Assembly: GCA_022706085.1 (NCBI GenBank)
Contig: JAKJDF010000007.1
Span: 10,474-74,473 of the forward strand
Source of the DNA: Candidatus Latescibacterota bacterium
GTDB taxonomy: Bacteria; Latescibacterota; MWCZ01
Direction of reading: 5' to 3'
DNA length: 64,000 nucleotides
This document shows, piece by piece, positions 9,640 to 56,807 of the stretch. Below the pieces are notes generated by a model. The model was not told where the DNA came from, searched no databases, and worked only from the letters and a program-made list of their open reading frames with translations. Each line of letters begins with the position of its first letter. Position 1 is the stretch's first letter. The position numbers were made by a program, and so were the translations under genes.

Positions 9640-10760
9640 GACGCATCCTGGAAATCGTCCGGAAGGAATTTGCGCAACTGAGGCGGGACCGGCGGCTGCT
9701 GGGGATCCTCCTTGTGGCGCCGGTATTCCAGCTTTTCATCCTCGGGTACGCTGCGACGACGGATCTGCGGGAGGTTCCGGTTGCGGTGTGCGACATGGAC
9801 AGGTCGGCCTCCAGCAGGAGCCTTCTGGAGGCGGTGAGCGCCAGCGGGGATTTCCGCCTGCGGTATTTCGTGGACGCGCCGCAGGAACTGGATGCGTATC
9901 TCGATCGCAACAGGGCGGATCTCGCGCTTGTCATCCCGCGGGACTACGGACGAAGGGTTATCCGGGGAGAGGCCGCGACGGTGCAGGTGCTGGTGGATGG
10001 AACGCGGACGAACGCGGGGCTTGCGCTGAGCCAGCTTTCGGGTGCGGTCGGCCAGCACGCGCAGTTCATACTGCTTGACCGCCTGACGAAGCGCGGCATT
10101 TCCGGCGAGCGCCCGGAGGTTCAACTGGCTACCCGGGTCTGGTACAATCCGGAGTTGAAGAGCCGGAATTTCATGCTCCCGGGGGTGCTGGCGCTTGTAC
10201 TTCTGATTATTGCGACGGCGGCGACATCCATGGCGATAGTTCGGGAGAAGGAGAACGGGACGATTGAACAGATCATCGTGACGCCTATCCGTTCGCTGGA
10301 GTTGATCGCGGGGAAATTGATCCCGTTCGCAATTGTCGGCATGGTGGAGGTTCTGCTGGTGCTGTCGGTAGCGACGCTGTGGTTCCGGGTGCCGTTAAAG
10401 GGGAGCGGGGTGCTTCTGCTGGCGCTGACGTTCCTTTTCGTCATCACGACTCAGGGGATGGGGCTGTTCGTATCCACCGTATCGCGGACGCAGCAACAGG
10501 CGATGATGATCATCATCTTTTTCATCGCGCTGCCGATGATTCTGCTCTCCGGCTTCGTGTTTCCGATTGAGAACATGCCGAAGCCGATCCAGCCGATCAC
10601 GTATCTGATGCCGCTGCGGTATTTCCTCGTCATTGTGCGGGGGATATTCCTGAAGGGTGTGGGGATGGAGGTGCTGTGGCCGCGGGTGGTGGCGCTGGCC
10701 GTGTTCGCGTTCGGGATACTGGGGCTTGCGGTGGCACGATTCCAGAAGCGGGTGGGGTAG
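9636..10760 (+). CDS. ABC-2 family transporter permease (paralogue)
   Basis: Starts MRRILEIVRKEF at an ATG overlapping the stop of the previous permease (ATGA); same architecture. The listed ORF 9015..10760 is an upstream in-frame extension. Confidence 0.85.
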   Translation: MRRILEIVRKEFAQLRRDRRLLGILLVAPVFQLFILGYAATTDLREVPVAVCDMDRSASSRSLLEAVSASGDFRLRYFVDAPQELDAYLDRNRADLALVIPRDYGRRVIRGEAATVQVLVDGTRTNAGLALSQLSGAVGQHAQFILLDRLTKRGISGERPEVQLATRVWYNPELKSRNFMLPGVLALVLLIIATAATSMAIVREKENGTIEQIIVTPIRSLELIAGKLIPFAIVGMVEVLLVLSVATLWFRVPLKGSGVLLLALTFLFVITTQGMGLFVSTVSRTQQQAMMIIIFFIALPMILLSGFVFPIENMPKPIQPITYLMPLRYFLVIVRGIFLKGVGMEVLWPRVVALAVFAFGILGLAVARFQKRVG

Positions 10761-10910
10761 GACGAACGGTGGGTGGTCGGCGAGTTGGGGCCGCGGAGGT
10801 GGTGGAACATGAACGAATCTTCATTGTCGGTATAGCGCCTCTTCATTGTTCCTTCTTACTTTTTCCTCTCGTGATTGAGCGACCGGACTGAAGCCTTTCC
10901 GGAGGCGGGG

Positions 10911-11327
10911 ATGACCTTTGGAGCGCGCATGCTGGTTGCCGTTGTGGCGGTGTTTGCGGCGTGCGGGGTTCCGCACGCGGAACCGAACGCGGATTCCAGC
11001 CGTACTCGTCCGTGCAGCGCGCGGACCGCGTTTGCGCTCGGTTTGGTGGTGCCGGGGGGAGGGCAGTTCTACCTCGGCGACCGGGCGGGGGGGATTCAGG
11101 CCGTGATTACGGATGTGATTTTGTTTGAGGCGCTTCGGAGGAACGACGCCACGATTTCCGGGGTTGTTTTCTTCATCGGCGCCGTACACGTTGTTGAGGC
11201 GTTGTTTGCCGCGCGCGAGTGCAGACTCAGAAACGCCGCTTTGCAGCCCCGGATAACGAGTGCCTTCCCGGATCGGCGCGAAGCTCCGGTGATCGGGCTG
11301 GCGGTGGCGGTCCCGATTTCCCACTGA
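10911..11327 (+). CDS. hypothetical secreted protein / possible lipoprotein
   Basis: Start MTFGARMLVAVVAVFAACG preceded by GGAGG; signal-peptide-like N-terminus; no recognisable family. Confidence 0.3.
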   Translation: MTFGARMLVAVVAVFAACGVPHAEPNADSSRTRPCSARTAFALGLVVPGGGQFYLGDRAGGIQAVITDVILFEALRRNDATISGVVFFIGAVHVVEALFAARECRLRNAALQPRITSAFPDRREAPVIGLAVAVPISH

Positions 11328-11372
11328 CCGGCCTTCCGGCGCGCAAGCGCCGCGCAGAAAGAACCCGTAAGA

Positions 11373-12851
11373 ATGCAACGCAGACGAACGATATTGATCA
11401 TCGCGGACGGGACGCGCCCGGACGTGCTCGGGGAGTTGATCGCGGCGGGGGAACTTCCGGCGATTGCGCAGGCGTTCCCCGAGCCGGCAATGCGCCGCCC
11501 GGCGGTGAGCGTGTTTCCTTCGACGACGGGGCCGGCGTTTCTTCCGTTTCTGACGGGAATGTACCCGGGGGATTTGAACATGCCGGGCATCCGCTGGTTT
11601 GACCGCGGAGCGTGGGCCGGGAGGAGCGGTGATCCGCCGTTCCGGAGCTACGTTGGCATCGAAAGCTACCGGATGAACGCGGATTTCCGGCGGGACGTGC
11701 CGACGCTTTTCGATATTCTGCCTGATTCGGCGAGCATCTTCAGTTCGGTGAACCGGGGTGTTCCGTTCCGGGGGAACATGACTGGCCTCTCGCGGGCGTG
11801 GTGGTGGTTGTTCGCGCACTGGACCGACCGCTGGGATGTGGTTGGCGTGCGGGCACGGGCTCGGTTGCTCGCGTCGCTGGAGATGGATCCGGAATTCGTG
11901 TTCTGCCTGATTCCGGATGTGGACAACTATTCGCACCTTTCGCACTGCCGGTCGGAGCCGGCGATTGCGGCGTACCGGCGGCTGGATCAGACGATCGGGG
12001 AGCTTTTCCGGGAGCTGGAACGGAGACGCTGGCGCGAGGATACGCTGGTGGTGATGGTGGCCGACCACGGGCACTCGGCGGTTCATACGCATCTGGGGTT
12101 GCCGGAGTGGATGGCGGAGCGGGGGTTCATGCCGTTCTACTACCCGCGCATCTGGAATCGTTCGTTTGATTCGGCGGTGATGGTGTCGGGCAACGGGATG
12201 GCGCATATCCACCTGCGGCGGGGGGGTACCTGGACGGCTGGACCTGTGCCGGACGAGGAAGTTGTGCGGGTTTTCGGGGCGCTGTTGGGGGCGCTGTTGG
12301 AGCGGCGTGAGATCGGGATCATCGCCACGAAGCGGAGCGACGGCGCGGTGGTGGTGCGTTCGCGGTCGGGCACGGGCGTGGTGACGCCGCTCGGGGAGGG
12401 GCATTTCCAGTACTCGACACAGGGCGGCGACCCGTTCGGGTATCGCGGCCTCGAGGGGGTGTGGAATTCGGATGATCTGCTCGAGGAGACGCTGGCGACG
12501 CGGTACCCGGACGGGCCAGTGCAGCTGGAGCAGCTTTTCCACTCGCCGCGGACAGGGGACATCGTCGTGAGCGCGGAAGTCGGGTTCGATCTGCGCGACA
12601 AGCACGAGAATCCGGAGCATTTTTCCGGTCACGGGGCGCTTCACGCCGATCACATGGTGGTGCCGTGGTTTTCGACGGCGCCTCTCCCGGATGTGCCGTT
12701 GCGGACGGTGGACGTGTTTCCTACGATCCTGCACTGGATGGGAAAGCCGATTCCGCCGGGGGTGACGGGGAAGGATCGCCTTGCGCCCGCCGTTGAGCCG
12801 GAACAGGCGGAAATGACAGGCGCGCGGACAGTTGGGGCGAGCGCCTTCTGA
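11373..12851 (+). CDS. alkaline-phosphatase-superfamily enzyme (type I phosphodiesterase / nucleotide pyrophosphatase-like)
   Basis: N-terminal TILIIADGTRPD metal-site motif and distal MVADHGHS motif characteristic of the AlkP/NPP superfamily; 492 aa. Confidence 0.7.
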   Translation: MQRRRTILIIADGTRPDVLGELIAAGELPAIAQAFPEPAMRRPAVSVFPSTTGPAFLPFLTGMYPGDLNMPGIRWFDRGAWAGRSGDPPFRSYVGIESYRMNADFRRDVPTLFDILPDSASIFSSVNRGVPFRGNMTGLSRAWWWLFAHWTDRWDVVGVRARARLLASLEMDPEFVFCLIPDVDNYSHLSHCRSEPAIAAYRRLDQTIGELFRELERRRWREDTLVVMVADHGHSAVHTHLGLPEWMAERGFMPFYYPRIWNRSFDSAVMVSGNGMAHIHLRRGGTWTAGPVPDEEVVRVFGALLGALLERREIGIIATKRSDGAVVVRSRSGTGVVTPLGEGHFQYSTQGGDPFGYRGLEGVWNSDDLLEETLATRYPDGPVQLEQLFHSPRTGDIVVSAEVGFDLRDKHENPEHFSGHGALHADHMVVPWFSTAPLPDVPLRTVDVFPTILHWMGKPIPPGVTGKDRLAPAVEPEQAEMTGARTVGASAF

Positions 12852-12887
12852 CGGGCGCCGGTGCCGACCGATATACACGAGGACTTT

Positions 12888-13862
12888 ATGCCGCTTCCGA
12901 GGAAATATACGCTGGCGAACAAGTTTTTCACTGCTTCCCGGTACCCGTTTCGGCGGCTTGCGGGGTATCCGACACTTGTCAATCTGGAAGTGACGAAGAA
13001 GTGCAACGCGCGGTGCGATTTCTGTGATTACTGGAAGACTGAGTCGGAGGAGCGGCTCGGGGACTACGCTCCGGTAATCGCCAAGTTGAAACCAACGGTG
13101 GTGATGCTTACCGGTGGCGAGCCGTTGCTCCGGCGGGACCTGCAGGCGGTGATCGCCGGGATAAAGAAGCAATCGCCGGCGGTGTACCTCGGCCTGATCA
13201 CCCACGCGGCGATGCTGACGCCGGAACGGGGGCTGGCGCTCTGGGACGCGGGGCTGGATCAGCTTTCGATCAGTCTCGATTTTCTCGATGAGCGGCACGA
13301 CAGGGCGCGGGGGATACCGGGGCTGGCGAAGAAGGTGAAGGAGACGATTCCGCTTCTTGTTCGGGCAGGAATTGATAACCTTGCGTTGAACACGGTAATC
13401 AAGTCGGACAATCTGGACCAGATCGTGGCGATGGTGCGTCAGTGCGAGGAGTGGGGGATCGGGATCGCGTTCAGCGCGTATGCCGACGTGAAGGTCGGCA
13501 ACAAGGAACACAACATCGGTGACGCGCAGATGAAGGAGCTGCAACGGGTTATCGGTGAGTTGCTGCGGCTCAAAAGAGAGGGTGCGCCGATACTGTCGTC
13601 GTCGTACTACCTTTCCCGCGTGCCGGAGTTTTTCGCCACGGGACGCATCGGCGGGTGCGTTGCCGGGGACCGGTTTGTCACCGTAACGCCGAGCGGCCAC
13701 GTGAAGAGGTGCAGTGAGTTTGACGCGGAGGTGCATTTTTCCGAGTGGACTCCGAAGTCCATCGGAGCGACGGATTGTGACGTCTGCTGGTTCAGTTGCC
13801 GGGGGGAATCTCAGGCGCCGGTGATATCGGCAGAGCGGCTGAAAGACACTCTTTTCAGATAG
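12888..13862 (+). CDS. radical SAM protein with C-terminal Cys cluster (SPASM/twitch-like)
   Basis: CNARCDFC (Cx3Cx2C) motif, LTGGEPLL glycine-rich SAM motif, C-terminal CSEF...CDVCWFSC cysteines; start set at the ATG (MPLPRKY) preceded by GAGGA. Confidence 0.8.
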   Translation: MPLPRKYTLANKFFTASRYPFRRLAGYPTLVNLEVTKKCNARCDFCDYWKTESEERLGDYAPVIAKLKPTVVMLTGGEPLLRRDLQAVIAGIKKQSPAVYLGLITHAAMLTPERGLALWDAGLDQLSISLDFLDERHDRARGIPGLAKKVKETIPLLVRAGIDNLALNTVIKSDNLDQIVAMVRQCEEWGIGIAFSAYADVKVGNKEHNIGDAQMKELQRVIGELLRLKREGAPILSSSYYLSRVPEFFATGRIGGCVAGDRFVTVTPSGHVKRCSEFDAEVHFSEWTPKSIGATDCDVCWFSCRGESQAPVISAERLKDTLFR

Positions 13863-13988
13863 AGCATCCGCGCCGAAGACTGACTGCGGTTTTTTGCGCC
13901 CTTGCCCGGCTGTTTGCCCGTCCCTCCCCTTTCTCCGTTTATTTCCTTACCGCAAACGGTTCGCCACCTCATATCGTGCGAGGATTCG

Positions 13989-15104
13989 ATGACCCAGTAC
14001 GAACGCGTACGCGCGGCCCTTCTCGGAGGACCTACAGACCGTCCTCCCGTAATTGGCGGCTGGGTGTGTCAGGAAGACTTTCTTGTCACCATGAGCCACG
14101 TGACGCGGGATGAGTTCTGGGAGAACCCTTATGCGCACGCCACGACCGCGTACAAAAACGCGGGCGCGGATGCGCTGGTGCAGTTTGTGCTGCCGAAACG
14201 GGAGACCGAGGCGACCCAGGGTGAGTACGGGCGGCCCACCAACTTCGGGAAACAGGAGGAACGGGCTGAAGACCGATTTCCCACCCTTGAATCGGTGATT
14301 GAGTGGGTTCGGAAGCAACCCACCATTGACGAGGTGCGGCGCACATTTGACGCGAAGAAGGCGTATGACGGGTACCTTTCGGTGGTTCACGAGCGGGAGG
14401 ACATTGCGCCGATGGTGTGGATTCCCGGGCATGTGTGCGGATGTCCGCCATTCATGTGGTATTCGTATCTGGGATATGAGAACTATTTTGCCGGGATGAT
14501 GGAAGCGCCCGAGGTGTTTGAGCGATTTTTCGCGATGGAAGGGGAGCAGCGGCGGCTGCAGAACGCGGAGGTGGCACGGGCGATACGGGAGAACGGGTTA
14601 CTGCCGCTCCTGTATTTCGGGGAGGACATCTGCTACAGCAGCGGCCCGATGTGCAGCCCCAGGCTTCTGCGGGAGATTTACTTCCCGCACCTTGCGCGCG
14701 CGATGGAACCGCTTGTGGAGGCGGGGATCATTTCGGTGTGGCACTCAGACGGCAACATCATGCCGATCATAGATGACCTTATCAGATGCGGAGTAGACGG
14801 TTTTCAGGGACTTGAAGAAGACCACGGAATGAGTCTTGAAACGTTAGCGGGGATGACGAACTGGAACGGTGTGCCACTGGTGCTCTGGGGAAGTGTCAGC
14901 GTGACCTCGACGCTGCCTCACGGAAGCGTCGAGGATGTAAGGAAGGATGTCAAACGGTGCATTGACATCGGAGCACGGCGTGGTGGCAGGTTGTTTCTGG
15001 CGCCTTCCAGTTCTGTCGGCCCTGAAGTTCCCACGGAGAACATCGTGGAGTTTTTCCGCTTCGGGAGGGAGTACGGTCTGGAGGCGTACGGAGGCGGAAG
15101 GTGA
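13989..15104 (+). CDS. uroporphyrinogen decarboxylase (URO-D) family protein
   Basis: About 370 aa with URO-D/MtaA-like fold features; start at MTQYERVRAALLG preceded by GAGGA. Paralogous to the ORFs at 20996..22129 and 35012..36142. Confidence 0.7.
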   Translation: MTQYERVRAALLGGPTDRPPVIGGWVCQEDFLVTMSHVTRDEFWENPYAHATTAYKNAGADALVQFVLPKRETEATQGEYGRPTNFGKQEERAEDRFPTLESVIEWVRKQPTIDEVRRTFDAKKAYDGYLSVVHEREDIAPMVWIPGHVCGCPPFMWYSYLGYENYFAGMMEAPEVFERFFAMEGEQRRLQNAEVARAIRENGLLPLLYFGEDICYSSGPMCSPRLLREIYFPHLARAMEPLVEAGIISVWHSDGNIMPIIDDLIRCGVDGFQGLEEDHGMSLETLAGMTNWNGVPLVLWGSVSVTSTLPHGSVEDVRKDVKRCIDIGARRGGRLFLAPSSSVGPEVPTENIVEFFRFGREYGLEAYGGGR

Positions 15105-15239
15105 GGAGGCTGTTTCGGGGGAGAACGGGTCGGACGGGCGAACAAGCCGCCCGGGGAGGACCGGAGCAGACGGACTAGAGGGGAGGGGAGAGGAAAAGTG
15201 GCACGGGCGCGTTGACGCGCCACGACTATGTGGTGGGGG

Positions 15240-16199
15240 TCAGCCCAACAGGAGGTACTTGCTCCACACGTATTTCGCCTTTGCCGCCAGACTGAGGAAA
15301 AGGTAGGTGTTGCACGCGTACTGGAACGATGGATCCATGTAGCAGTTGATCGTGCACCCCTGGCAGTACACGTGCCTGCCATCCTCGCGTTTGTACGCCT
15401 TCACGAGCGAACCTGCCCGCACCTTTTCCAACTGGCCGTTTATCGGTATGCGTTCTCTCTGCCGATGGAAGCACGGAAGGAGCAGGTGATCGTCCGGTGA
15501 GATGACGATGACGGCTTCCACCGCGTGACAGACGGGGTGCGCCCGCTGATTGCCGCCAGCCCGAATGAGACGGTGAAACGCCCGGTTGACGTAGACATTC
15601 CGCTCACGGGCGAACCGTTCAAGGTAGGCCAGTTCCCGTTCTCCGACACCTTTGTTCCCCGCCCACGGAAACTCCGGATTCACGATGAGCATGGTATTGT
15701 ACGCCTGCGCGATGGCGGCGAGCGGCGCGATCTGTTCGAACGTCTCCTCCGTTGCCGTAAAAAGGATGTCGGGATGCTCGCCGAGAGCACGCGCGACATC
15801 CAGGCTCTCCATCACCCGGTCGAAACACGGCAGGCCACGGATGCGGTCGTGAGTGTCCTTTTCCGCGGCGTCGAGCGAGAAGTGGAGCAGGTCTACCTGG
15901 CCGGCGAGATCCTTTGCACGGGCGGGGTAACGCAGGCAGTTGGTGGTGACGCTGGTTCGGAATCCGAGCACCTTCGCCAGGCGAAGCGCGCGGGGCAGGT
16001 CGTGATAGAGGAGGGGTTCGCCGCCGGTGAAATCCACGAATCGAGTGCCCAGTTTCCGGGCGGCGGTGAGGTTGGAGGTCATCTGGTCCCAGGAAGGGGT
16101 GGCGCGGTGGTCCCATTTTGCGGGGTCCCAGATGGTGCAGAATGAGCACCGGGCGTTGCAGCGGTAGGTCACGTAATAGTGGAGGAGGAGCGGTTTCAT
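15240..16199 (-). CDS. radical SAM protein with C-terminal Cys cluster (paralogue of 12888..13862)
   Basis: YVTYRCNARCSFC (Cx3Cx2C), FTGGEPLL, C-terminal CQGCTINC cysteines; 319 aa. Confidence 0.8.
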   Translation of the reverse strand: MKPLLLHYYVTYRCNARCSFCTIWDPAKWDHRATPSWDQMTSNLTAARKLGTRFVDFTGGEPLLYHDLPRALRLAKVLGFRTSVTTNCLRYPARAKDLAGQVDLLHFSLDAAEKDTHDRIRGLPCFDRVMESLDVARALGEHPDILFTATEETFEQIAPLAAIAQAYNTMLIVNPEFPWAGNKGVGERELAYLERFARERNVYVNRAFHRLIRAGGNQRAHPVCHAVEAVIVISPDDHLLLPCFHRQRERIPINGQLEKVRAGSLVKAYKREDGRHVYCQGCTINCYMDPSFQYACNTYLFLSLAAKAKYVWSKYLLLG

Positions 16200-16287
16200 T
16201 TTGTGATGCTGAAATCACGGGGGAGGGAGCGCGATGAAGTGAGCAGGGCACGACGAAGCGTGCCCCTCCAGGATCGGGGAGCGGCGG

Positions 16288-17697
16288 TCATTTTTTGAAG
16301 CTCCCACGGAAGCTTTTTTTCGCGGGGAGCGGGAAATCGCGGCGCTTTGTCCATCCGGAGAACGGGTAAGGCAGGGAAGATACCCATCCCTCGCTTGAGA
16401 GCGGCAACATTCCCCAGCGGAGGGCCTTGCCTCCGAACCGATAAAGGAGCGGGGAGCGCATGGCAAGCGCCCAGAGGCGCATGCCGAGCCGTTCGAGGAC
16501 GTGGTTTTCCCCGTGTTCTGCCTGTTCGGCACGCATGGCAGTCAACATGTGCGGGATATTGATCTTCATCGGGCATGCCTGGTAACAGGCGCCGCACAGG
16601 GATGACGCGTGGGGAAGGCTGTTGAAGCGGCTTCGTCCTTCGTACAGTGGTGAAAGCACCGACCCGATGGGTCCGGGATAGACACTCCCGTACGTATGGC
16701 CGCCCACGTTCCGGTAAACGGGGCAGGTATTCAGGCAGGCGCCACACCGGATGCACCTCAAGGTCTGCCGGTACCCGGAGCCGAGAACAGTGGTGCGACC
16801 GTTGTCGATCAGTATTACGTGGAGTTCTCGCGGGCCGTCACCTTCGCCTTCCCTTCGAGGGCCTGTGATGAGGTTGGTGTAGACGGTCATGGGCTGTCCG
16901 GTGGCGCTGCGAGCAAGGAGTTTGAGGAAGACGGGGAGGTCTTCCAGCCGGGGGATGATTTTCTCGATCCCCATGAATACGACCTGGACGGGCGGCCACG
17001 TGGCGCAGAGGCGGCCATTGCCCTCATTGGTAACCTGAATGACCGTTCCGGTGTCAGCGGCGGCGAAGTTGGCGCCGGTGATGCCCATGTCGGCGTTCGC
17101 GAATTCCTCCCTCAGGCGGGCGCGTGCGAACTTTGTGATTTCCGCCGGCTCCGGGGGCAGAGACACGCCGAAGGAGGAGTTGAAAAGATCCGCGATTTCT
17201 TCCTTCGTGCGATGCACGGCCGGGACGACAATGTGCGAGGGGCGATCCCCGGCGACCTGGAGGATGTATTCGCCGAGGTCGGTTTCCATCACACAGAAAC
17301 CTTCGCGCTCCAGCGCCTCGTTCAGGTGCGTCTCTTCGCTCACCATTGTTTTGGCTTTCACGATGCGCTTCACGTTGCGCTCGCGCGCGATAGAGGCGAC
17401 CAGGGCGTTGGCATCGCCCGCGGTTCTGGCCCAGTGGACGACTCCGCCGGCTTTCTCCACCGAGTCGGCGAACTCTGCGAGGTAGCGATCGAGGTGCTGG
17501 AGGACGTCGTCTTTGATCTGGCGGGCTTTTTCGCGGAGCAGGTCGCTTTCGGGCAATGCGGCCATCAAGGCCCTGCGGCCGTCGTCGAATTTCGCGGTTG
17601 CGCGGAAGAGCGCTTTCGCCAGCGATTCATTGCGAAGGGACTGGCGGGTTGCGGCGCCGAAATCCCACCGAGGCAGCGGTCTGGTTTCGTGGTTCAT
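16288..17697 (-). CDS. lutB: lactate utilisation protein B-like iron-sulfur protein
   Basis: LUD-type domain plus CIRCGACLNTCPVY and CGACYQACP 4Fe-4S motifs; start MNHETRPLPRW overlaps the lutA stop (ATGA). Confidence 0.8.
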   Translation of the reverse strand: MNHETRPLPRWDFGAATRQSLRNESLAKALFRATAKFDDGRRALMAALPESDLLREKARQIKDDVLQHLDRYLAEFADSVEKAGGVVHWARTAGDANALVASIARERNVKRIVKAKTMVSEETHLNEALEREGFCVMETDLGEYILQVAGDRPSHIVVPAVHRTKEEIADLFNSSFGVSLPPEPAEITKFARARLREEFANADMGITGANFAAADTGTVIQVTNEGNGRLCATWPPVQVVFMGIEKIIPRLEDLPVFLKLLARSATGQPMTVYTNLITGPRREGEGDGPRELHVILIDNGRTTVLGSGYRQTLRCIRCGACLNTCPVYRNVGGHTYGSVYPGPIGSVLSPLYEGRSRFNSLPHASSLCGACYQACPMKINIPHMLTAMRAEQAEHGENHVLERLGMRLWALAMRSPLLYRFGGKALRWGMLPLSSEGWVSSLPYPFSGWTKRRDFPLPAKKSFRGSFKK

Positions 17698-18422
17698 GGC
17701 GCGGTCACCTCCCCCGAAAGGATTCGGGCGAGGTGGATGACCTTTACCGGTACCCCGCGCCGCTTCAGCGCCCCGGAGATGTTCATGATGCACCCCGTGT
17801 CGTTCACGACGACGGCCTCTGCGCCGGTTTCAATGATTCGTTCCGCTTTGTCGTTTGCCAGGTGGCCTGAGAGGTCCGGCATTTTGATGGAGAACGCGCC
17901 TCCAAAGCCACAACAGCGTTCTTTGCCATCGAGGGGAATGTACGTCACGCCCTGCAAGGATTTCACCAGATCCTCCGCTTCGGTGGTCATGCCGAGAGCG
18001 CGCTGGTGGCAGGTGTAATGGTAGGTCAGCCTGCCGTCGAACCTCGCGTCCGTTGATTTGATGTTCAGTACTTTGCCGAGGAATTCGATGAACTCGTAAG
18101 AGCGGGAGGCAAGTGCTTCGGAACGGGCAAGGAGAGCTTCGTCATTGACGAACAGGCGGGGAAATGCCTCGCGGATCATCGCGGTGCAGGACGCAGAAGG
18201 GGATACCACGTATTCCGACCCTTCGAACACATCCAGCATGCGGGCCGCGACGGAGCGGGCCTCGGCCCAGTTGCCGGTGTTGAACGCGGGCTGGCCACAA
18301 CAGGTCTGCCCGCGGGGGAATACCAGTTCTACTCCGTGTTTCCGCAGGATGCTCACCATCGCAAGCCCTATTTCCGGGTGGAACAGGTCGGCGAGGCAGG
18401 TGATGAAGAGCGACACGCGCAT
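17694..18422 (-). CDS. lutA: lactate utilisation protein A-like Fe-S oxidoreductase (CCG domains)
   Basis: MRVSLFITCLADLFHPEIG...GQTCCGQPAFNTG and second CCG repeat ERCCGFGG; start at the internal ATG (M74 of the listed ORF). Confidence 0.8.
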   Translation of the reverse strand: MRVSLFITCLADLFHPEIGLAMVSILRKHGVELVFPRGQTCCGQPAFNTGNWAEARSVAARMLDVFEGSEYVVSPSASCTAMIREAFPRLFVNDEALLARSEALASRSYEFIEFLGKVLNIKSTDARFDGRLTYHYTCHQRALGMTTEAEDLVKSLQGVTYIPLDGKERCCGFGGAFSIKMPDLSGHLANDKAERIIETGAEAVVVNDTGCIMNISGALKRRGVPVKVIHLARILSGEVTAP

Positions 18423-18654
18423 GGAGATTGCCTTTACGCGGAATGAGGTTCGCCACAGAGTGAAGAAGGATACCAAAAAGCCGCATCCCGGCCAAGAAGA
18501 AACCGGGCGGGGATGCTCGTGCCGAAGCAATGCGGCCTCCACGGACGGGGGGCCGCGGGAACCGGGATTGGCGGCCCCGGATCGAGTCCGGGAAGCGGCA
18601 CGGGAAGGACCTGCCGGAGCGGCGCGGAACGGCCGCGCCACTCCGGTTGCGAGG

Positions 18655-31353: not shown

Positions 31354-31710
31354 ATGAAGATCGCGGTTCCAGTAGACACGAACGAGGGCCTCAGAAGTAT
31401 CGTTGCCGGCCATTTCGGGCATGCACCGCACTATGCGTTCGTCGATGGAAAGACGAAGCAATGCGCCGTTGTTCCAAACGCGAGTTCGCACAATGGCGGG
31501 GACAAGCTGCCCCCGGAATGGTTGTTTGATGAAGGCGTGAATGTCCTCATCTGCAACGGGCTGGGCGCGCGTGCCATCGGCCTGTGCACACAACTGGGAA
31601 TCGAGGTCTATATCACGGAGGAGCAAACAGTGGCGGAGTCCATTGGCGCGTTTGAAGCGGGAATGCTGCCCAGGGCGGGTTCCGATGATGCGTGCGCTCA
31701 CAAGCATTAG
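31354..31710 (+). CDS. NifX/NafY-like protein (dinitrogenase FeMo-cofactor biosynthesis domain family)
   Basis: MKIAVPVDTNEGLRSIVAGHFGHAPHYAFVD...VNVLICNGLGARAIGLCTQLGIEVY, typical of this domain; AAGGGAAGGA ribosome-binding site. Confidence 0.75.
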   Translation: MKIAVPVDTNEGLRSIVAGHFGHAPHYAFVDGKTKQCAVVPNASSHNGGDKLPPEWLFDEGVNVLICNGLGARAIGLCTQLGIEVYITEEQTVAESIGAFEAGMLPRAGSDDACAHKH

Positions 31711-31739
31711 ATTCCACAACACGACGAAAGGTGAGACCG

Positions 31740-32270
31740 ATGAAGATCGCAGTAAGCAGTTCCGGTCAGGAGCTCGACTCGCCGGTAGATCCGCGATTCG
31801 GACGATGCACTCATTTCGTAATCGTGGACTCCGACACTGACGACTACGACGCCATTGAAAATGCAGCAAGTGAAGCGGGAAGTGGCGCGGGAATCGCGGC
31901 GGCAAGCGCACTGGCGAAGGCGGGCGCGGAGGTTGTTTTGACGGGGAACCTCGGGCCCAATGCCGCGCGCACTCTCTCCACGCTCGGCATCAAGGCGTAC
32001 CGCGCAGAGGGCGACACGGTGGGAGAATCGGTGACCGCTTTCATTGATGGGCAACGGTTCGAAATCACGTCGCCGACTGTCACCGCGAAATCGGGCCTGA
32101 ATCCGCCTGCCGCGGTATTCCCCTCTCGTCCGTTGGGCGGCAGCACTGGCGGAGGAATGGGACGCGGTATGGGCGGCGGCGGAGGTATCGGCGGGGGTGG
32201 CGGCAGAGGCGCCGGTGGAGACCGTGGTGCTGGCGGCGGCAGAGGGGCCGGTGGCGGACGCGGAAGATGA
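31740..32270 (+). CDS. NifX/NafY-like protein with Gly/Arg-rich C-terminal tail
   Basis: MKIAVSSSGQELDSPVDPRFGRCTHFVIVD...AEVVLTGNLGPNAARTLSTLGIKAY, then tail GGGMGRGMGGGGGIGGGGGRGAGGDRGAGGGRGAGGGRGR; AAAGGTGAG ribosome-binding site. Confidence 0.7.
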   Translation: MKIAVSSSGQELDSPVDPRFGRCTHFVIVDSDTDDYDAIENAASEAGSGAGIAAASALAKAGAEVVLTGNLGPNAARTLSTLGIKAYRAEGDTVGESVTAFIDGQRFEITSPTVTAKSGLNPPAAVFPSRPLGGSTGGGMGRGMGGGGGIGGGGGRGAGGDRGAGGGRGAGGGRGR

Positions 32271-33121
32271 TAGTAAGCGTTGCAAGCGGGAAAGGCGGAA
32301 CCGGCAAGACCACGGTTGCGGTTGCGCTGGCGCAGGTAGCTCCGAACAGCGCCTACGTGGATTGCGACACCGAAGCGCCTAACGGGCACCTGTTTTTGCG
32401 CCCGAATATTTCACACCGCAAACCGGTCAATCGCAAAGTAGCCTCGATCAATGTGAACATGTGCACGTGGTGCGGTGAATGCATGGAAAAATGCGCCTAC
32501 CACGCGATCGTGATCGCACACGCGACGAAGAAGGCCGTCGTATTCGAGGACCTGTGCATGGGATGCGGCGTCTGTTCACTCGTGTGCCCGGCTCGCGCGA
32601 TTACAGAGGAAGACCGGCACGCGGGAATCGTTTCGAACGGCCACAGTGGCAGGATTCGCACGCGGGAGGGCCGAATGGCGGTTGAGGCTCCTCACGCGCA
32701 CCCTGTGCTGAATGAGACGTTGAAGGAGCTTCCCGATGCGCCTCACACGATTCTCGACGCGGAGCCGGGTGTCACGGGGCGTGTAGTAACAACGGTGAGG
32801 GCAAGCGATGTGTGTGTTCTAGTCACTGAGCCAACACCGTTCGGGCTGCACGATCTGGAGCTGGCCGTGACGATGACGCAGCATGTCGGGGTTCCGGTCG
32901 GCGTCATCATCAATCGTTCAACGATAGGCGACAACGCCGTGCGCGACTTTTGTCGGGTTCGGACCATACCCGTTCTGCTGGAGATTCCGTTTGACCGACG
33001 CATTGCAGCGGGGTACGCGGTGGGAAAGACGCTTGTTGAGATTCTGCCGGACATGAAAAGCCAATTTGCGGAGGTTCTCAGGCATATCGAGCGGATCGTC
33101 ACTGAGAGGGGGCGATCATGA
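32267..33121 (+). CDS. MinD/ParA-type P-loop ATPase with embedded 4Fe-4S ferredoxin domain
   Basis: Deviant Walker A SGKGGTGKTT; ferredoxin insert CTWCGECMEKC...CMGCGVCSLVCP; ATGA overlap with upstream gene. Confidence 0.8.
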   Translation: MIVSVASGKGGTGKTTVAVALAQVAPNSAYVDCDTEAPNGHLFLRPNISHRKPVNRKVASINVNMCTWCGECMEKCAYHAIVIAHATKKAVVFEDLCMGCGVCSLVCPARAITEEDRHAGIVSNGHSGRIRTREGRMAVEAPHAHPVLNETLKELPDAPHTILDAEPGVTGRVVTTVRASDVCVLVTEPTPFGLHDLELAVTMTQHVGVPVGVIINRSTIGDNAVRDFCRVRTIPVLLEIPFDRRIAAGYAVGKTLVEILPDMKSQFAEVLRHIERIVTERGRS

Positions 33122-34035
33122 CTCCGCAGATTACGGTGGTAAGCGGGAAAGGCGGTACCGGAAAGACAACGCTTACTGCTCTGTGGGGCAGCATGGCAGA
33201 CAGGCCGGTGCTTGTAGACGCGGATGTGGACGCGTCGAACCTTCCGCTGGCGTACCCCCACGAGACGCGGGAGCAGCATCCGTTCGTTGGACGGGATGTG
33301 GCCGTAGTGAACGAGCCGTTGTGCAAGAATTGCGGTGTGTGCGCGAGGGCGTGCAGGTTTGATGCGTTTGTGCAGGTTGAAGGCCAGTTCCGGGTGGACC
33401 CGCTTGCGTGCGAAGGATGCACGCTGTGCACGCTGGTGTGCCCGCTCGATGCGATCACCATGAAACCGCACGTCTCCGGAACGTGGTCTGTGAGCGAAAC
33501 CGGGTTCGGACCTCTCGTCCATGCTCAACTGGGAATTGCGGAGGGGAATTCCGGCAAACTGGTGACGCAGGTGCGCCGGGCGGGGGAGAAGCTGGCAGAG
33601 GAGCGGGTGGCGGCAGTGATTCTGGTTGACGGCCCTCCGGGGATCGGCTGCCAGACAACGGCGGCGATGGCGGGAGCCTCTCTGGTGGTGCTGGTAACTG
33701 AACCGTCGGCGTCAGGGCGGCACGACATGGAGCGGTTGCTTTCGGTAACGAATCGGCTGGGTGTTCCGGCGCTTGTTGTTCTCAACAAGGTTGACCTTGC
33801 ACCCGCTGAAGAGGCGTTGATTCGGAACGCGGTATCGCGCATGGGCGCGGAGTATGCGGAGTATATAGGGTCCGTCCCGTTCATTCAGGAGGTCCCCGGG
33901 CTGCTTGCTTCGGGAACCCTGCTCAGCGAGTGCCCGCGCCCGCTGAGGGAAGCGGCGGAAGGACTGTGGAAGGTAATTCTGGAACGCGCACTGGTGGCGG
34001 AGCGCGTCCAGCAGGGAGAACCTGCGCACGGATAA
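33118..34035 (+). CDS. MinD/ParA-type P-loop ATPase with embedded 4Fe-4S ferredoxin domain (paralogue)
   Basis: SGKGGTGKTT; CKNCGVCARAC...CEGCTLCTLVCP; ATGA overlap with upstream paralogue. Confidence 0.8.
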   Translation: MTPQITVVSGKGGTGKTTLTALWGSMADRPVLVDADVDASNLPLAYPHETREQHPFVGRDVAVVNEPLCKNCGVCARACRFDAFVQVEGQFRVDPLACEGCTLCTLVCPLDAITMKPHVSGTWSVSETGFGPLVHAQLGIAEGNSGKLVTQVRRAGEKLAEERVAAVILVDGPPGIGCQTTAAMAGASLVVLVTEPSASGRHDMERLLSVTNRLGVPALVVLNKVDLAPAEEALIRNAVSRMGAEYAEYIGSVPFIQEVPGLLASGTLLSECPRPLREAAEGLWKVILERALVAERVQQGEPAHG

Positions 34036-35011: not shown

Positions 35012-36142
35012 TTACGCCGGCCAGTGATCCCAGAATCTTTTCCTGCCACGTTCGCTGACGTAACCGGCGAGAGCTCTTCGGGGGCATCCCTCATCGAGGA
35101 GACGCTTCACTTCTTTCGCCGCGCGAATGAACGCGTGGATTTTCGGGATGTTCTCCCCATTGCATGAATTTGCTTCCAGAATCGTGAATACTCTGGAGGC
35201 CCCGTCCGCAGCCGACTGAAAGACGAAATCCTCCACGTCCTGCGCGTCCAGCACCGTTAGATGGATTCCCCCGAGGCGCCAGCCAAAGGGTACGCGGCAC
35301 TCGTCCGCGATGATACGGGGGTTCAGGTGGTGGGAGATGGACGGGTCGTAGTAAGACAGCCCGATCTGTTCCAGGAAGGGCAGGTGAGCAGGTTTCAGGT
35401 CTTCCACGTGCGCATGAACATCACCCGTGGTGCGGCGGCGGAAGAGATCGCTCCAGAACGGGACGACGAATTCATTCCAGAGCCGTGGGGGAATCATTGC
35501 GGCGATGTCGTCGCACAGGCTTGCGCCGCTTTCGTTGAACACCGTTGCGCCGGTAACGCCGAGGCGGAACTGCTCGAACGCGAGGATACTGTCGTTGATC
35601 CGGCCCAGGAGCTCCTTTGTTTTCGCCGGTTCCTCCATCACGTCGACGAAAAAGGCATCGCCCCGCAATTCGTAGGCTGTGGTGCAGGGACCTTCCACTC
35701 CGAAGGAGAAGCCGACCGATTCGCCGGGAAACGCCCGCATCATCTGTTCGCGGAAGTCCAGATAGAACGGGGCCATCCCTCTGCTGGCGAAATCGACCGG
35801 CCGCGCGAGAGCTTCCATCGCTTCCGCCATCGAGTGCGCGAAGCAGTGCTCGACCGCGACCTCGCCTCCTTCGGGGAAAAACAATCTCGCGCCCAGGGCG
35901 CTGGCGTGGCCGTAACTTACTGGCGGCGTGGCGGGAGAGGGCAAGGAAACGTCGTGCGGGTCGAACAGCTGCCTTTGCTTTTCCCGTCCGACGCGATACG
36001 CCTCGATACAGGCTTCTGGTTTGAGAAAGAAATCGCGGAACGGTACCCCGGACAGCGCAAGGCAGGAGAGATAGCTACCTGACACGCTCCATGAGAACTC
36101 CTTCGGATTGCGCGCGGATGTGTAGTCGGGTTTGCGGTACAT
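35012..36142 (-). CDS. uroporphyrinogen decarboxylase (URO-D) family protein
   Basis: Start MYRKPDYTSARNPKEF preceded by AGGAGG; about 376 aa; third URO-D-like paralogue in the window. Confidence 0.7.
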   Translation of the reverse strand: MYRKPDYTSARNPKEFSWSVSGSYLSCLALSGVPFRDFFLKPEACIEAYRVGREKQRQLFDPHDVSLPSPATPPVSYGHASALGARLFFPEGGEVAVEHCFAHSMAEAMEALARPVDFASRGMAPFYLDFREQMMRAFPGESVGFSFGVEGPCTTAYELRGDAFFVDVMEEPAKTKELLGRINDSILAFEQFRLGVTGATVFNESGASLCDDIAAMIPPRLWNEFVVPFWSDLFRRRTTGDVHAHVEDLKPAHLPFLEQIGLSYYDPSISHHLNPRIIADECRVPFGWRLGGIHLTVLDAQDVEDFVFQSAADGASRVFTILEANSCNGENIPKIHAFIRAAKEVKRLLDEGCPRRALAGYVSERGRKRFWDHWPA

Positions 36143-36389
36143 GATGGCCTCCTGATACCAATGAATCGGGAAAAGTGCCCACGGGAGCAAGCTGGCGCCT
36201 GAACGGAGTGTCACGAGGGAACTTGGTGCCGGGGCCGCGTCGCGCTATTGTACTTGACGAATCCGGGAAACTGCTATCCCGGTGTCAGTGACTGTGTTCC
36301 CACAGGTTGCGTCCTCCTGAATGCCCTCATGCAGGGCGGCGAGCGTCTTCCTCAGGGTGTTTTTCGACTCCACGGAAAGGAATCCGAGC

Positions 36390-56748: not shown

Positions 56749-56785
56749 GTCAGTGCCTTTCCTGCTGACGCAACAATACAAGAGG

Positions 56786-56807
56786 CTCACGCGAAGACAC
56801 GAAGCAG
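56786..56807 (+). repeat. CGCGAAGA-repeat element, copy C (shorter)
   Basis: CTCACGCGAAGACACGAAGCAG, 40-60 bp upstream of the sulfatase start on the opposite strand. Confidence 0.5.

What the first reader, a model, noticed from the sequence alone, without database searches (positions are those of the whole stretch)
11373..16199. Two paralogous radical SAM proteins flanking a URO-D-like gene next to an AlkP-superfamily enzyme
An alkaline-phosphatase-superfamily enzyme and a radical SAM protein (CNARCDFC plus C-terminal Cys cluster) are separated by 36 bp, followed by a URO-D-family protein. A second, paralogous radical SAM gene (CNARCSFC) converges from the opposite strand. URO-D-like proteins include cobamide-dependent methyltransferase components. 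The combination is not a textbook pathway and could be a cofactor, lipid or peptide modification module. The window also contains a Cys-type sulfatase needing a maturase, but these roughly 320-aa radical SAM proteins look too short and Cys-poor for typical anaerobic sulfatase-maturating enzymes.
Basis: inference. Interest (0 to 1): 0.5.

Follow-up and report, generated by a model that had tools for sequence, protein, structure and literature searches.

The report
Radical SAM–phosphoesterase gene neighbourhood, function unknown
The genes are real, and part of the cluster (a phosphoesterase, a radical SAM enzyme and a URO-D-like protein) recurs in related uncultured bacteria, probably for membrane-lipid or head-group chemistry, but the second radical SAM gene is only a chance neighbour and no function has been shown.

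Summary
All genes exist as described, in a Latescibacteria-type genome: AlkP/NPP-family enzyme 11373-12851, radical SAM rSAM1 12888-13862 (36-bp gap), URO-D-like 13989-15104, convergent radical SAM rSAM2 15240-16199. A conserved small membrane-protein gene (10911-11327) lies upstream.

None reaches any curated family cut-off. The two radical SAM proteins are distant paralogues with the same twitch-like five-Cys C-terminus.

Comparative loci show a variable neighbourhood, not a fixed module.
- small–AlkP–rSAM1–URO-D recurs in relatives at 59-64% URO-D identity, often beside DedA/VTT or DoxX membrane-protein genes.
- Some relatives have VTT–rSAM1–URO-D, small–URO-D, or URO-D alone.
- AlkP–rSAM1 also recurs in a Calditrichota-like clade, followed by a class-II-aldolase-family gene and a PlsC acyltransferase.
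- 80 of 80 more distant rSAM1 homologues lack both partners within 10 kb.
- rSAM2 is adjacent only in near-identical genomes.

The AlkP has a complete Thr-nucleophile bimetal site. Its subfamily occurs fused to CDP-alcohol phosphatidyltransferase, DedA/VTT and GT4 domains. The URO-D-like protein lacks the MtaA zinc ligands.

Best guess, inferred: radical modification plus dephosphorylation of a lipid head group or phospho-alcohol. Moderately interesting, function unproven.

The parts
10911..11327 (+). Small membrane protein (138 aa). It has an N-terminal signal or lipoprotein-like segment and a conserved two-helix core, C-x3-TAFxLG-x2-PGGGQFYL-D...FI-x3-HV...AA-x2-CR. No Pfam or NCBIfam family matches.
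   Evidence: ORF and public gene call. Alignment A3 of six orthologues gives 27 invariant columns, including C35 and C104. It lies directly upstream of AlkP in L099, L168, L169 and the JGI 174-kb contig. It lies directly upstream of URO-D-like where AlkP and rSAM1 are absent: L095 and L097 by sequence, and on the JGI 261-kb contig by position only, where the 275-aa gene has no Pfam hit and no DNA was available.
11373..12851 (+). Cytoplasmic AlkP-superfamily (NPP / type I phosphodiesterase fold) metallo-phosphoesterase, 492 aa, with a Thr nucleophile. It belongs to an uncharacterised subfamily.
   Evidence: PF01663 at 88 bits; no NCBIfam cut-off is reached. No signal peptide: the sequence starts at the strand carrying metal ligand D12. 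Subfamily alignment A4 has invariant D12, T52, D184/H188, D231/H232 and H416/H420. 168 50%-identity clusters score E<=1e-30. Fusions of this subfamily to CDP-OH_P_transf, VTT and GT4 domains exist.
12888..13862 (+). rSAM1: radical SAM enzyme (324 aa) with a twitch-like C-terminal domain. It belongs to a large uncharacterised family.
   Evidence: PF04055 at 73 bits. The best NCBIfam hit is TIGR03961 at 85 bits against a 306-bit cut-off. 4091 homologues were found. A1 invariants are C39/C43/C46 and C257, C275, C297, C300, C304. The AF2 model has pLDDT 92.5. The best PDB matches are SkfB, BlsE, SuiB, PqqE and MoaA, with TM <= 0.67.
13989..15104 (+). Divergent URO-D/MtaA-fold TIM-barrel protein (371 aa) with a conserved W-H-S-D-G motif in place of the MtaA H-x-C zinc site.
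   Evidence: PF01208 at 51 bits on the C-terminal half only; MtaA-type models give about 41 bits against cut-offs of 235-400. A2 invariants include D213, C215, W251, H252 and D254. The AF2 model has pLDDT 92.8. The best PDB match is MtaA 4ay7/4ay8 (TM 0.57-0.61), followed by UROD structures.
15240..16199 (-). rSAM2: second radical SAM enzyme (319 aa), a distant paralogue of rSAM1. It is adjacent but not part of the conserved neighbourhood.
   Evidence: PF04055 at 80 bits; TIGR03961 at 82 bits against 306. The family is labelled from Latescibacteria, KSB1, Zixibacteria, Calditrichota and Zhuqueibacterota. A5 invariants are C14/C18/C21 and C224, C243, C279, C282, C286. Homologues at 66%, 60% and 52% identity lie in unrelated contexts. 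The rSAM2 homologue P0130 and the rSAM1 homologue P0008 are reported on a JGI contig of the same sample and the same length (174,214 bp), but neither appears in the other's 8-kb flanks.

Best explanation
This is a variable, operon-like gene neighbourhood, not a fixed five-gene module.

Shown:
- Four co-directional genes (small membrane protein, cytoplasmic NPP-type phosphoesterase 'AlkP', twitch-type radical SAM 'rSAM1', URO-D/MtaA-fold protein) recur in a clade related to this Latescibacteria-type genome.
- They are often flanked by DedA/VTT and DoxX membrane-protein genes, and components drop in and out.
- The most widely conserved link is AlkP-rSAM1. It reappears in a Calditrichota-like clade, followed by a class-II-aldolase-family gene and a PlsC-type acyltransferase.
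- rSAM2 is a distant paralogue from a separate stand-alone family. It is a neighbour only in this species.

Inferred mechanism:
- The unit modifies a membrane-lipid polar head group, or a phosphorylated alcohol (sugar or polyol phosphate) destined for one.
- rSAM1 cleaves SAM at its CX3CX2C cluster. The 5'-deoxyadenosyl radical abstracts a hydrogen from the sugar- or polyol-like substrate. One auxiliary Fe-S cluster, held by the five C-terminal Cys, handles the electron or binds the substrate, as in the BtrN/BlsE/MoaA class.
- The AlkP enzyme uses its Thr nucleophile and two metal ions to remove the phosphate ester. This is the kind of phosphate left when a head group is attached by a CDP-alcohol phosphatidyltransferase.
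- The URO-D-like barrel carries out a further step that does not use cobamide or the MtaA mechanism. That step cannot yet be named.
- The DedA/VTT, small and DoxX proteins tie the process to the membrane.
For: Gene order:
- small-AlkP-rSAM1-URO-D occurs in L099, L168, L169 and the JGI 174-kb contig, at 59-64% URO-D identity.
- VTT-rSAM1-URO-D occurs in L094.
- AlkP-rSAM1-aldolase II-PlsC occurs in L170 and L171, at 39% AlkP and 46-48% rSAM1 identity. The PlsC domain TIGR00530 scores 120.6 bits, above its 102.95-bit cut-off.
- AlkP-paired rSAM1s fall in two separate clades of an NJ tree, with solitary members between them.
- Gaps in the window are short (45, 36 and 126 bp), with no terminator-like site between the genes.

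Lipid link:
- The AlkP subfamily is fused to CDP-alcohol phosphatidyltransferase (P0445, P0447, P0545), to DedA/VTT (P0436, Zixibacteria) and to a GT4 glycosyltransferase (P0471).
- A VTT gene lies next to the cluster in L099, L169 and L094.
- DoxX lies downstream in L169, L095 and the JGI 261-kb contig.

Enzyme competence:
- The full bimetal site and Thr nucleophile are invariant in AlkP.
- The radical SAM motif and five C-terminal Cys are invariant in rSAM1.
- The rSAM1 model is confident and matches the twitch/SPASM class.

rSAM2 exclusion.
Against: - No biochemical or expression evidence exists for any of the proteins.
- 80 of 80 GTDB loci with rSAM1 homologues at 42-52% identity have no AlkP of this subfamily and no URO-D-like gene within 10 kb. 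Their neighbours are housekeeping genes or hut genes. rSAM1 therefore does not need either partner in cis and may have a general cellular role.
- Orthologous URO-D-like genes occur alone (L093) or with only the small gene (L095, L097). The JGI 261-kb contig has the same layout by position.
- The CDP-alcohol-transferase fusions have lost the AlkP nucleophile and metal ligands. They show association with lipid enzymes, not phosphatase activity.
- The broader URO-D-like family at 37-47% identity is linked to Gfo/Idh/MocA oxidoreductases instead: 21 of 79 loci by clustering, 7 within 400 bp. That points to sugar metabolism.
- L170 and L171 are closely related to each other, so they count as a single second lineage.
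Confidence: 0.35

Rival explanations
1. No common function. rSAM1 is a general housekeeping radical SAM enzyme (for example RNA or protein modification, or metabolite repair). Its proximity to AlkP and URO-D-like in some FCB-group lineages is inherited synteny without biochemical coupling.
For: rSAM1 homologues are solitary in 80 of 80 GTDB loci from Dadabacteria, Thermodesulfobacteriota, Gemmatimonadaceae and Acidobacteriota. They sit beside TsaE, YjeF and CysS, or inside hut operons. They are also solitary in Paludibaculum and in L172. Each cluster component can be absent.
Against: AlkP-rSAM1 adjacency, on the same strand with short gaps, survives down to 39% and 46% identity in two clades separated by solitary members. 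rSAM1-URO-D adjacency appears in at least four different flanking contexts.
Confidence: 0.25
2. Anaerobic sugar or sugar-phosphate catabolism. rSAM1 acts on a carbohydrate in a BtrN/DesII/BlsE-like way, AlkP is a sugar-phosphate phosphatase or mutase, and URO-D-like is a cofactor-free decarboxylase. The unit would serve this polysaccharide-degrading organism.
For: BlsE is the second-best structural match over the full length. A class-II-aldolase-family gene follows the pair in L170 and L171. Gfo/Idh/MocA genes neighbour the wider URO-D-like family. The window also encodes GH35, GH28, an oligogalacturonate-lyase-like protein, a sulfatase and an acetyl-xylan-esterase-like gene.
Against: AlkP-subfamily fusions and neighbours are lipid or membrane proteins, not sugar kinases or transporters. 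No glycoside hydrolase or sugar transporter lies inside the conserved unit. rSAM1 homologues in the small-genome Dadabacteria-type lineages are not in sugar loci.
Confidence: 0.15
3. One reading: one module in which both radical SAM enzymes and a cobamide-type URO-D-like methyltransferase build or modify a cofactor or peptide.
For: Physical clustering in the window. The two radical SAM proteins share their architecture. The URO-D-like protein is closest in fold to MtaA.
Against: rSAM2 is adjacent only in near-identical genomes. The MtaA zinc site is absent. The radical SAM proteins have no B12-binding domain and no corrinoid protein is among the operon genes. No conserved short ORF was seen; the only small ORF examined is the membrane protein. 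No Rfam element is present.
Confidence: 0.07
4. Enzyme-maturase pair. rSAM1 post-translationally modifies the AlkP enzyme, by analogy with anaerobic sulfatase-maturating enzymes and sulfatases. The target could be the active-site T-G-P-A segment.
For: Tight AlkP-rSAM1 pairing in two clades. The AlkP superfamily contains the one well-known case of radical SAM maturation. The T52-G-P-A segment superficially resembles C/S-x-P-x-R.
Against: Thr at this position, with the T+9 = TG spacing, is the ordinary NPP nucleophile and needs no modification (established NPP knowledge). There is no Arg at +4. rSAM1 has five, not seven or eight, C-terminal Cys and no SPASM Pfam hit. No anSME structure is among the top 50 PDB matches. 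Most rSAM1 homologues have no AlkP nearby.
Confidence: 0.06

Closest known systems
Twitch/SPASM-class radical SAM enzymes (MoaA, BtrN, SkfB, BlsE, PqqE) and the uncharacterised NCBIfam family TIGR03961 (PTO1314)
   Same: rSAM1 and rSAM2 have the CX3CX2C core, a beta-hairpin Cys pair followed by CxxC(xxxC) after the barrel, and a size near 320 aa. Both have TIGR03961 as best NCBIfam hit and SkfB, BlsE and MoaA among the best structures.
   Different: Scores are far below every curated cut-off (about 82-85 bits against 284-306). Five conserved C-terminal Cys fit neither the 3-4 of classic twitch domains nor the 7-8 of SPASM. TM is <= 0.67 to any solved structure. The substrate is unknown.
Sulfatase plus anaerobic sulfatase-maturating enzyme (AtsB/ChuR/anSMEcpe)
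   Same: An AlkP-superfamily hydrolase is encoded next to a radical SAM enzyme with auxiliary-cluster cysteines.
   Different: The hydrolase is NPP-type with a Thr nucleophile and lacks the C/S-x-P-x-R motif. The radical SAM enzyme lacks a full SPASM domain. Most family members are not next to any AlkP gene.
Head-group phosphate phosphatases acting after CDP-alcohol phosphatidyltransferases (PGP and PIP phosphatases) and lipid-active NPPs (autotaxin, NPP6, NPP7). This comparison rests on my own knowledge.
   Same: The proposed role is removal of a head-group phosphate. The AlkP subfamily is fused to CDP-alcohol phosphatidyltransferase and sits beside PlsC and DedA genes.
   Different: Known bacterial PGP phosphatases (PgpA, PgpB, PgpC) are not AlkP-fold enzymes. 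Activity is untested here. The transferase fusions carry inactive AlkP domains.
MtaA/MtbA methylcobamide:CoM methyltransferases and uroporphyrinogen decarboxylase (HemE)
   Same: The TIM-barrel fold is the same. MtaA is the best structural and sequence match, and PF01208 is passed.
   Different: The zinc ligands H-x-C...C are replaced by H-x-D...S. Scores are about 41 bits against 235-400. No corrinoid partner is present. Only the C-terminal half matches the URO-D profile.
Calditol synthase Cds, an archaeal radical SAM enzyme that remodels a sugar head group on a membrane lipid (review PMC13459092)
   Same: Conceptually it is a radical SAM enzyme acting on a lipid polar head group. The review notes that this pathway implies an as yet unknown phosphatase.
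   Different: This is a lead from the literature, not a test.

Membership tests
Anaerobic sulfatase-maturating enzyme (anSME) | Radical SAM CX3CX2C cluster motif | tested here: met
   CNARCDFC in rSAM1 and CNARCSFC in rSAM2; PF04055 at 73 and 80 bits.
Anaerobic sulfatase-maturating enzyme (anSME) | Full SPASM domain with 7-8 Cys binding two auxiliary [4Fe-4S] clusters | tested here: not met
   Neither window protein hits PF13186. Only five C-terminal Cys are invariant in each family. No anSME structure is among the top 50 PDB matches.
Anaerobic sulfatase-maturating enzyme (anSME) | Substrate hydrolase carrying the C/S-x-P/A-x-R motif | tested here: not met
   The adjacent AlkP has FPSTTGPAF with invariant T52 and no Arg at +4. 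The only CxPxR sulfatase in the window is about 40 kb away.
TIGR03961 (PTO1314 family radical SAM) | Score at or above the curated cut-off of 306 bits | tested here: not met
   84.6 bits for rSAM1 and 82.1 bits for rSAM2.
MoaA (GTP 3',8-cyclase) | TIGR02666 cut-off of 284 bits | tested here: not met
   82.7 bits for rSAM1 and 59.9 bits for rSAM2, matching the core only. No moaC or other molybdopterin gene was seen in the Pfam-annotated loci.
Twitch/SPASM structural class of radical SAM enzymes | C-terminal beta-hairpin with two Cys, then a helix followed by CxxC, appended to the partial TIM barrel | tested here: met
   C257-x17-C275 on predicted strands 263-266 and 271-273, then C297-x2-C300-x3-C304. 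The best folds are SkfB, BlsE, SuiB, PqqE and MoaA. Cluster binding itself was not tested.
MtaA/MtbA/CmuA methylcobamide methyltransferase | Zinc site His-x-Cys...Cys, and the curated score | tested here: not met
   In the HMM alignment to 4ay7, H-I-C aligns to H252-S-D254 and G-C-G aligns to S-S-V. TIGR01463 gives 41.7 bits against 235.4.
MtaA/MtbA/CmuA methylcobamide methyltransferase | Corrinoid protein partner encoded nearby | tested here: not met
   No B12-binding domain is found in the genes from 10875 to 18641 or in the Pfam-annotated related loci.
Uroporphyrinogen decarboxylase superfamily (PF01208) | Pfam gathering score and UROD-type TIM-barrel fold | tested here: met
   51.4 bits against 23.9, residues 190-391 only. 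Foldseek to UROD structures gives TM 0.52-0.60 and to MtaA 0.57-0.61. No HemE equivalog model was among the NCBIfam hits, so it is a superfamily member only.
Alkaline-phosphatase superfamily, NPP / type I phosphodiesterase branch (PF01663) | Pfam score, two-metal ligand set and Ser/Thr nucleophile | tested here: met
   88.2 bits against 23. D12, T52, D184, H188, D231, H232, H416 and H420 are invariant in 28 subfamily sequences. Metal content and activity were not tested.
Prokaryotic viperin (pVip) | NF038283 cut-off of 180 bits and full-length match | tested here: not met
   rSAM2 gives 62.8 bits on residues 6-120 only. The PADLOC pVip models match only the N-terminal core, at 45-70 bits.
RiPP radical SAM maturase | Adjacent precursor peptide and an N-terminal peptide-recognition (RRE) domain | tested here: inconclusive
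   The radical SAM core starts at about residue 30 in rSAM1 and residue 3 in rSAM2, which leaves no room for an RRE. The only small ORF I examined across loci is a 138-aa membrane protein that persists without rSAM1. Very short unconserved peptides cannot be excluded.

The most novel reading that the evidence does not exclude
AlkP-rSAM1 would be the core of an undescribed bacterial system for radical remodelling of a phosphorylated membrane-lipid head group. Alternatively, it would synthesise a new polyol-phosphate head group. Either way it would be a bacterial counterpart to archaeal calditol-type chemistry. The large rSAM1 family (thousands of sequences in Gemmatimonadota, Acidobacteriota, Dadabacteria, Thermodesulfobacteriota and FCB candidate phyla) would then mark a widespread, unrecognised lipid modification.
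Probability: 0.15. Interest if true: 0.7.

Novelty: new variant of a known kind. Interest (0 to 1): 0.4.

Why it matters
- The four conserved neighbourhood proteins (small, AlkP, rSAM1, URO-D-like) and rSAM2 all belong to families with no characterised member.
- Two of these are large. rSAM1 has more than 4000 homologues across many phyla, and rSAM2 about 3000 across FCB candidate phyla.
- A conserved pairing of a radical SAM enzyme with a catalytically intact NPP-type phosphoesterase gives a concrete, testable entry point into one of these families.
- The pairing is linked by fusions and neighbours to phospholipid-synthesis and DedA proteins.
- If the lipid reading holds, it would add a new membrane-lipid modification in uncultured anaerobes. 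Such lipids are relevant to biomarker interpretation.
- If it fails, the result is still useful. It separates a real conserved pair from a chance neighbour (rSAM2) and removes the cobamide-methyltransferase and sulfatase-maturase readings.

Tried and rejected
1. Curated family assignment with Pfam, NCBIfam and PADLOC gave superfamily-level hits only.
2. Sequence search of solved structures found nothing closer than MoaA, MtaA or a phosphonate monoester hydrolase fragment.
3. The afdb50 fold library was unavailable. The PDB Foldseek search gave class-level matches only.
4. The genome scan with the rSAM1 alignment returned 80 loci at 42-52% identity, none with the partners. De novo neighbour clustering found only lineage-specific synteny.
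5. I looked for a mobile-cassette signature around AlkP-rSAM1 and found no meaningful flanking repeats.
6. Promoter and terminator scans and Rfam gave nothing informative.
7. AlkP context could not be extended. The viral-contig and plasmid searches were empty, and proteins from the representative search cannot be looked up on contigs. I used matching contig lengths from cluster listings as a proxy, which led to L170.
8. Literature searches for this gene combination and for PTO1314 found nothing. The calditol synthase paper is not held, so the Cds lead stayed untested.
9. The bacterial membrane-spanning lipid synthase (Mss) idea could not be tested, because no sequence was available.
10. A short secreted PF01663 protein lies near rSAM1 homologues in five Dadabacteria-type loci. 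I judged it lineage synteny, not a partner, because it has a signal peptide and lies on the opposite strand.

Full report
**Observation**

- AlkP-superfamily protein, 11373-12851 (+), 492 aa, PF01663 at 88 bits.
- Radical SAM protein rSAM1, starting at ATG 12888. The start follows GAGGA, gives the 36-bp gap, and matches the public gene call. It ends at 13862 and has CNARCDFC.
- URO-D-family protein, 13989-15104 (+), 371 aa, PF01208 at 51 bits on the C-terminal half only.
- Convergent radical SAM protein rSAM2, 15240-16199 (-), 319 aa, with CNARCSFC.
- A fifth gene was missed: a 138-aa membrane protein at 10911-11327 (+), 45 bp upstream of AlkP.

The window matches an NCBI assembly (GCA_022703525.1). 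The identical rSAM2 protein is labelled Candidatus Latescibacteria. Upstream lies a TetR / HlyD-like / ABC / OEP / ABC-2 efflux operon. Downstream, on the other strand, are LutB, LutA, a Gfo/Idh/MocA oxidoreductase and an esterase-like gene.

**Family assignment**

None of the proteins reaches a curated family cut-off.
- Both radical SAM proteins have TIGR03961 (PTO1314 family) as best NCBIfam hit, at 85 and 82 bits against 306. MoaA, PqqE, AhbD, viperin, sactisynthase, HpnH and Tes models follow with core-only matches.
- The two proteins are 26% identical (E 2e-13).
- Their family profiles align over 268 columns at 99.6% probability. The alignment includes a shared C-terminal pattern: a Cys pair on a hairpin, then CxxCxxxC.
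- They are therefore distant paralogues of one architectural type, not recent duplicates.
- The rSAM1 model is confident (pLDDT 92.5). Its best solved relatives are SkfB, BlsE, SuiB, PqqE and MoaA (TM <= 0.67). No anSME is among the top 50.

**The AlkP protein**

It has no signal peptide. It belongs to a modest subfamily of 168 50%-identity clusters at E <= 1e-30.
- All two-metal ligands and the nucleophile are invariant in that subfamily: D12, T52, D184/H188, D231/H232, H416/H420.
- The nucleophile is Thr, with the NPP-type T+9 = TG spacing. It is not a C/S-x-P-x-R formylglycine site.

**The URO-D-like protein**

The model has pLDDT 92.8 and is nearest to MtaA (TM about 0.6), then to UROD.
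- The MtaA zinc ligands H-x-C...C align to H252-x-D254...S.
- MtaA-type models score about 41 bits against 235-400.
- No corrinoid protein is among the operon genes or the annotated related loci.

**Is the cluster conserved?**

At 96-100% identity the whole arrangement, including rSAM2 and LutB, is present (L089-L092). Beyond that level, several arrangements occur.
- small-AlkP-rSAM1-URO-D: L099, L168, L169 and a JGI 174-kb contig (59-64% URO-D identity). The outer flanks differ: hydantoinase and HEAT genes, or VTT, DoxX and sulfatase genes.
- rSAM1-URO-D on short contigs L004 and L098.
- HU-VTT-rSAM1-URO-D without AlkP or small: L094.
- small-URO-D(-DoxX) without AlkP or rSAM1: L095 and L097, shown by sequence. 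A JGI 261-kb contig has the same layout by position only, because the 275-aa upstream gene has no Pfam hit and no DNA was available.
- URO-D alone, between AlkZ-related and RecG genes: L093, at 69% identity.

A second clade carries AlkP-rSAM1 followed by a class-II-aldolase-family gene and a PlsC-type acyltransferase.
- This is seen in L170 and L171, at AlkP 39% and rSAM1 46-48% identity.
- The L170 AlkP falls in a 90%-identity cluster named Calditrichota.
- In an NJ tree the AlkP-paired rSAM1s form two clades separated by solitary members.

More distant homologues show no such linkage.
- 80 of 80 GTDB loci with rSAM1 homologues at 42-52% identity have neither partner within 10 kb. This holds by tblastn and by profile search.
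- Those loci come from Dadabacteria, Thermodesulfobacteriota, Gemmatimonadaceae, Acidobacteriota and others.
- Their neighbours are lineage-specific: TsaE, YjeF, CysS and FabI-type genes, or hut genes.

rSAM2 homologues at 66%, 60% and 52% identity lie in unrelated contexts.
- On the JGI contig of the same sample and length that carries the four-gene cluster, rSAM2 does not appear in the cluster's flanks.

The conclusion is a real but variable neighbourhood: VTT, small, AlkP, rSAM1, URO-D-like and DoxX. AlkP-rSAM1 is the most widely conserved pair. rSAM2 is a chance neighbour.

**What it may do**

There is no direct functional evidence. Several indirect observations point to membrane lipids or phospho-alcohol head groups.
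1. The AlkP subfamily occurs fused to CDP-alcohol phosphatidyltransferase (P0445, P0447, P0545), to a DedA/VTT domain (P0436, Zixibacteria) and to a GT4 glycosyltransferase (P0471).
2. A separate VTT gene adjoins the cluster in three loci.
3. A PlsC acyltransferase is co-directional with the pair in the second clade.
4. Two further membrane proteins (small, DoxX) travel with the URO-D-like gene.

Two caveats apply.
- The CDP-alcohol-transferase fusions have lost the AlkP nucleophile and metal ligands.
- The wider URO-D-like family associates with Gfo/Idh/MocA oxidoreductases instead.

From this I infer the following working model.
- rSAM1 performs hydrogen-abstraction chemistry on a sugar- or polyol-type head group, or on its phosphorylated precursor.
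- One auxiliary cluster takes part, as in the BtrN/BlsE/MoaA class.
- AlkP removes the phosphate ester.
- The URO-D-like barrel adds a step that does not follow the MtaA mechanism.

I put about 0.35 on this model. The structural conclusions (variable neighbourhood, conserved pair, rSAM2 unrelated) are much firmer.

**Rivals**

- No shared function, with rSAM1 a housekeeping enzyme (0.25).
- Anaerobic sugar-phosphate catabolism (0.15).
- An anSME-like enzyme-maturase pair (0.06).
- A defence-system reading has only core-level pVip similarity.

**Novelty and verdict**

The proteins are new, uncharacterised branches of known superfamilies. The AlkP-radical SAM pairing resembles sulfatase/anSME only superficially, and I found no description of it in the literature. 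The finding is moderately interesting as a handle on large families of unknown function. It is not a demonstrated new system.

Noticed in passing
L048, L064, L072, L087, L088 and about 20 Gemmatimonadaceae loci (rSAM1 homologue at about 10001-10924 in full-length loci): In Gemmatimonadaceae the rSAM1 homologue sits co-directionally inside a histidine-utilisation operon. Urocanase and histidine ammonia-lyase lie upstream and an imidazolonepropionase-like amidohydrolase lies downstream. No explanation is offered. It could be a functional hint or lineage synteny.
   Followed up: partly
P0445, P0447, P0545 (proteins; sequences): Fusions of CDP-alcohol phosphatidyltransferase with the AlkP subfamily have lost the Thr nucleophile and the D-H metal ligands, yet they keep motifs such as G-x-RWFDR. 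This looks like a pseudo-enzyme domain, possibly for binding or regulation. The AlkP-VTT fusion P0436 keeps all the catalytic residues.
   Followed up: partly
L028, L031, L033, L036, L051 (0.5-1.7 kb upstream of the rSAM1 homologue, opposite strand): A short (about 290-325 aa) PF01663 protein bearing a signal peptide lies near the rSAM1 homologue in five Dadabacteria/Thermodesulfobacteriota-type loci. This is a second, different AlkP-family neighbour. It is probably lineage synteny.
   Followed up: partly
window 35012-36214 (-): A second, more divergent URO-D-like gene (400-aa ORF, PF01208 at 25.6 bits, just above the cut-off) lies 20 kb from the first. Its neighbours were not examined.
   Followed up: no
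window 55126-56790 (-): A Cys-type sulfatase (CAPARSAVITGMYP) has an N-terminus that starts almost at the catalytic domain, with no obvious signal peptide. My crude gene set for the window contains no protein with CX3CX2C other than rSAM1 and rSAM2, so no canonical anSME is evident there.
   Followed up: partly
window 31354-34035 (+): A dinitrogenase FeMo-cofactor-binding-domain protein (PF02579) is followed by two MinD/ParA-type P-loop ATPases with inserted 4Fe-4S ferredoxin domains. This is a recurrent but poorly understood anaerobe gene set.
   Followed up: no
window 16288-18641 (-): LutB (TIGR00273 at 501 bits, above its cut-off) and a LutA-like CCG-domain protein lie immediately beyond rSAM2. 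The longest LutA ORF overlaps the LutB ORF by 100 bp (17694-17793). The LutA start I listed is probably too far upstream, since its Pfam CCG match begins at residue 76.
   Followed up: no
window 1-64000: GC skew is positive in every 2-kb bin from about 2 kb to 58 kb, and the cumulative skew rises to 3.26. G+C dips locally to 0.54 at 60-62 kb against about 0.62 elsewhere.
   Followed up: no
L105, L109, L115, L127, L132, L133, L143: In the wider URO-D-like family (37-44% identity), a co-directional Gfo/Idh/MocA oxidoreductase gene lies within 400 bp in 7 loci. By ORF clustering it is present in 21 of 79 loci. This hints at a sugar or polyol redox role for that broader family.
   Followed up: partly
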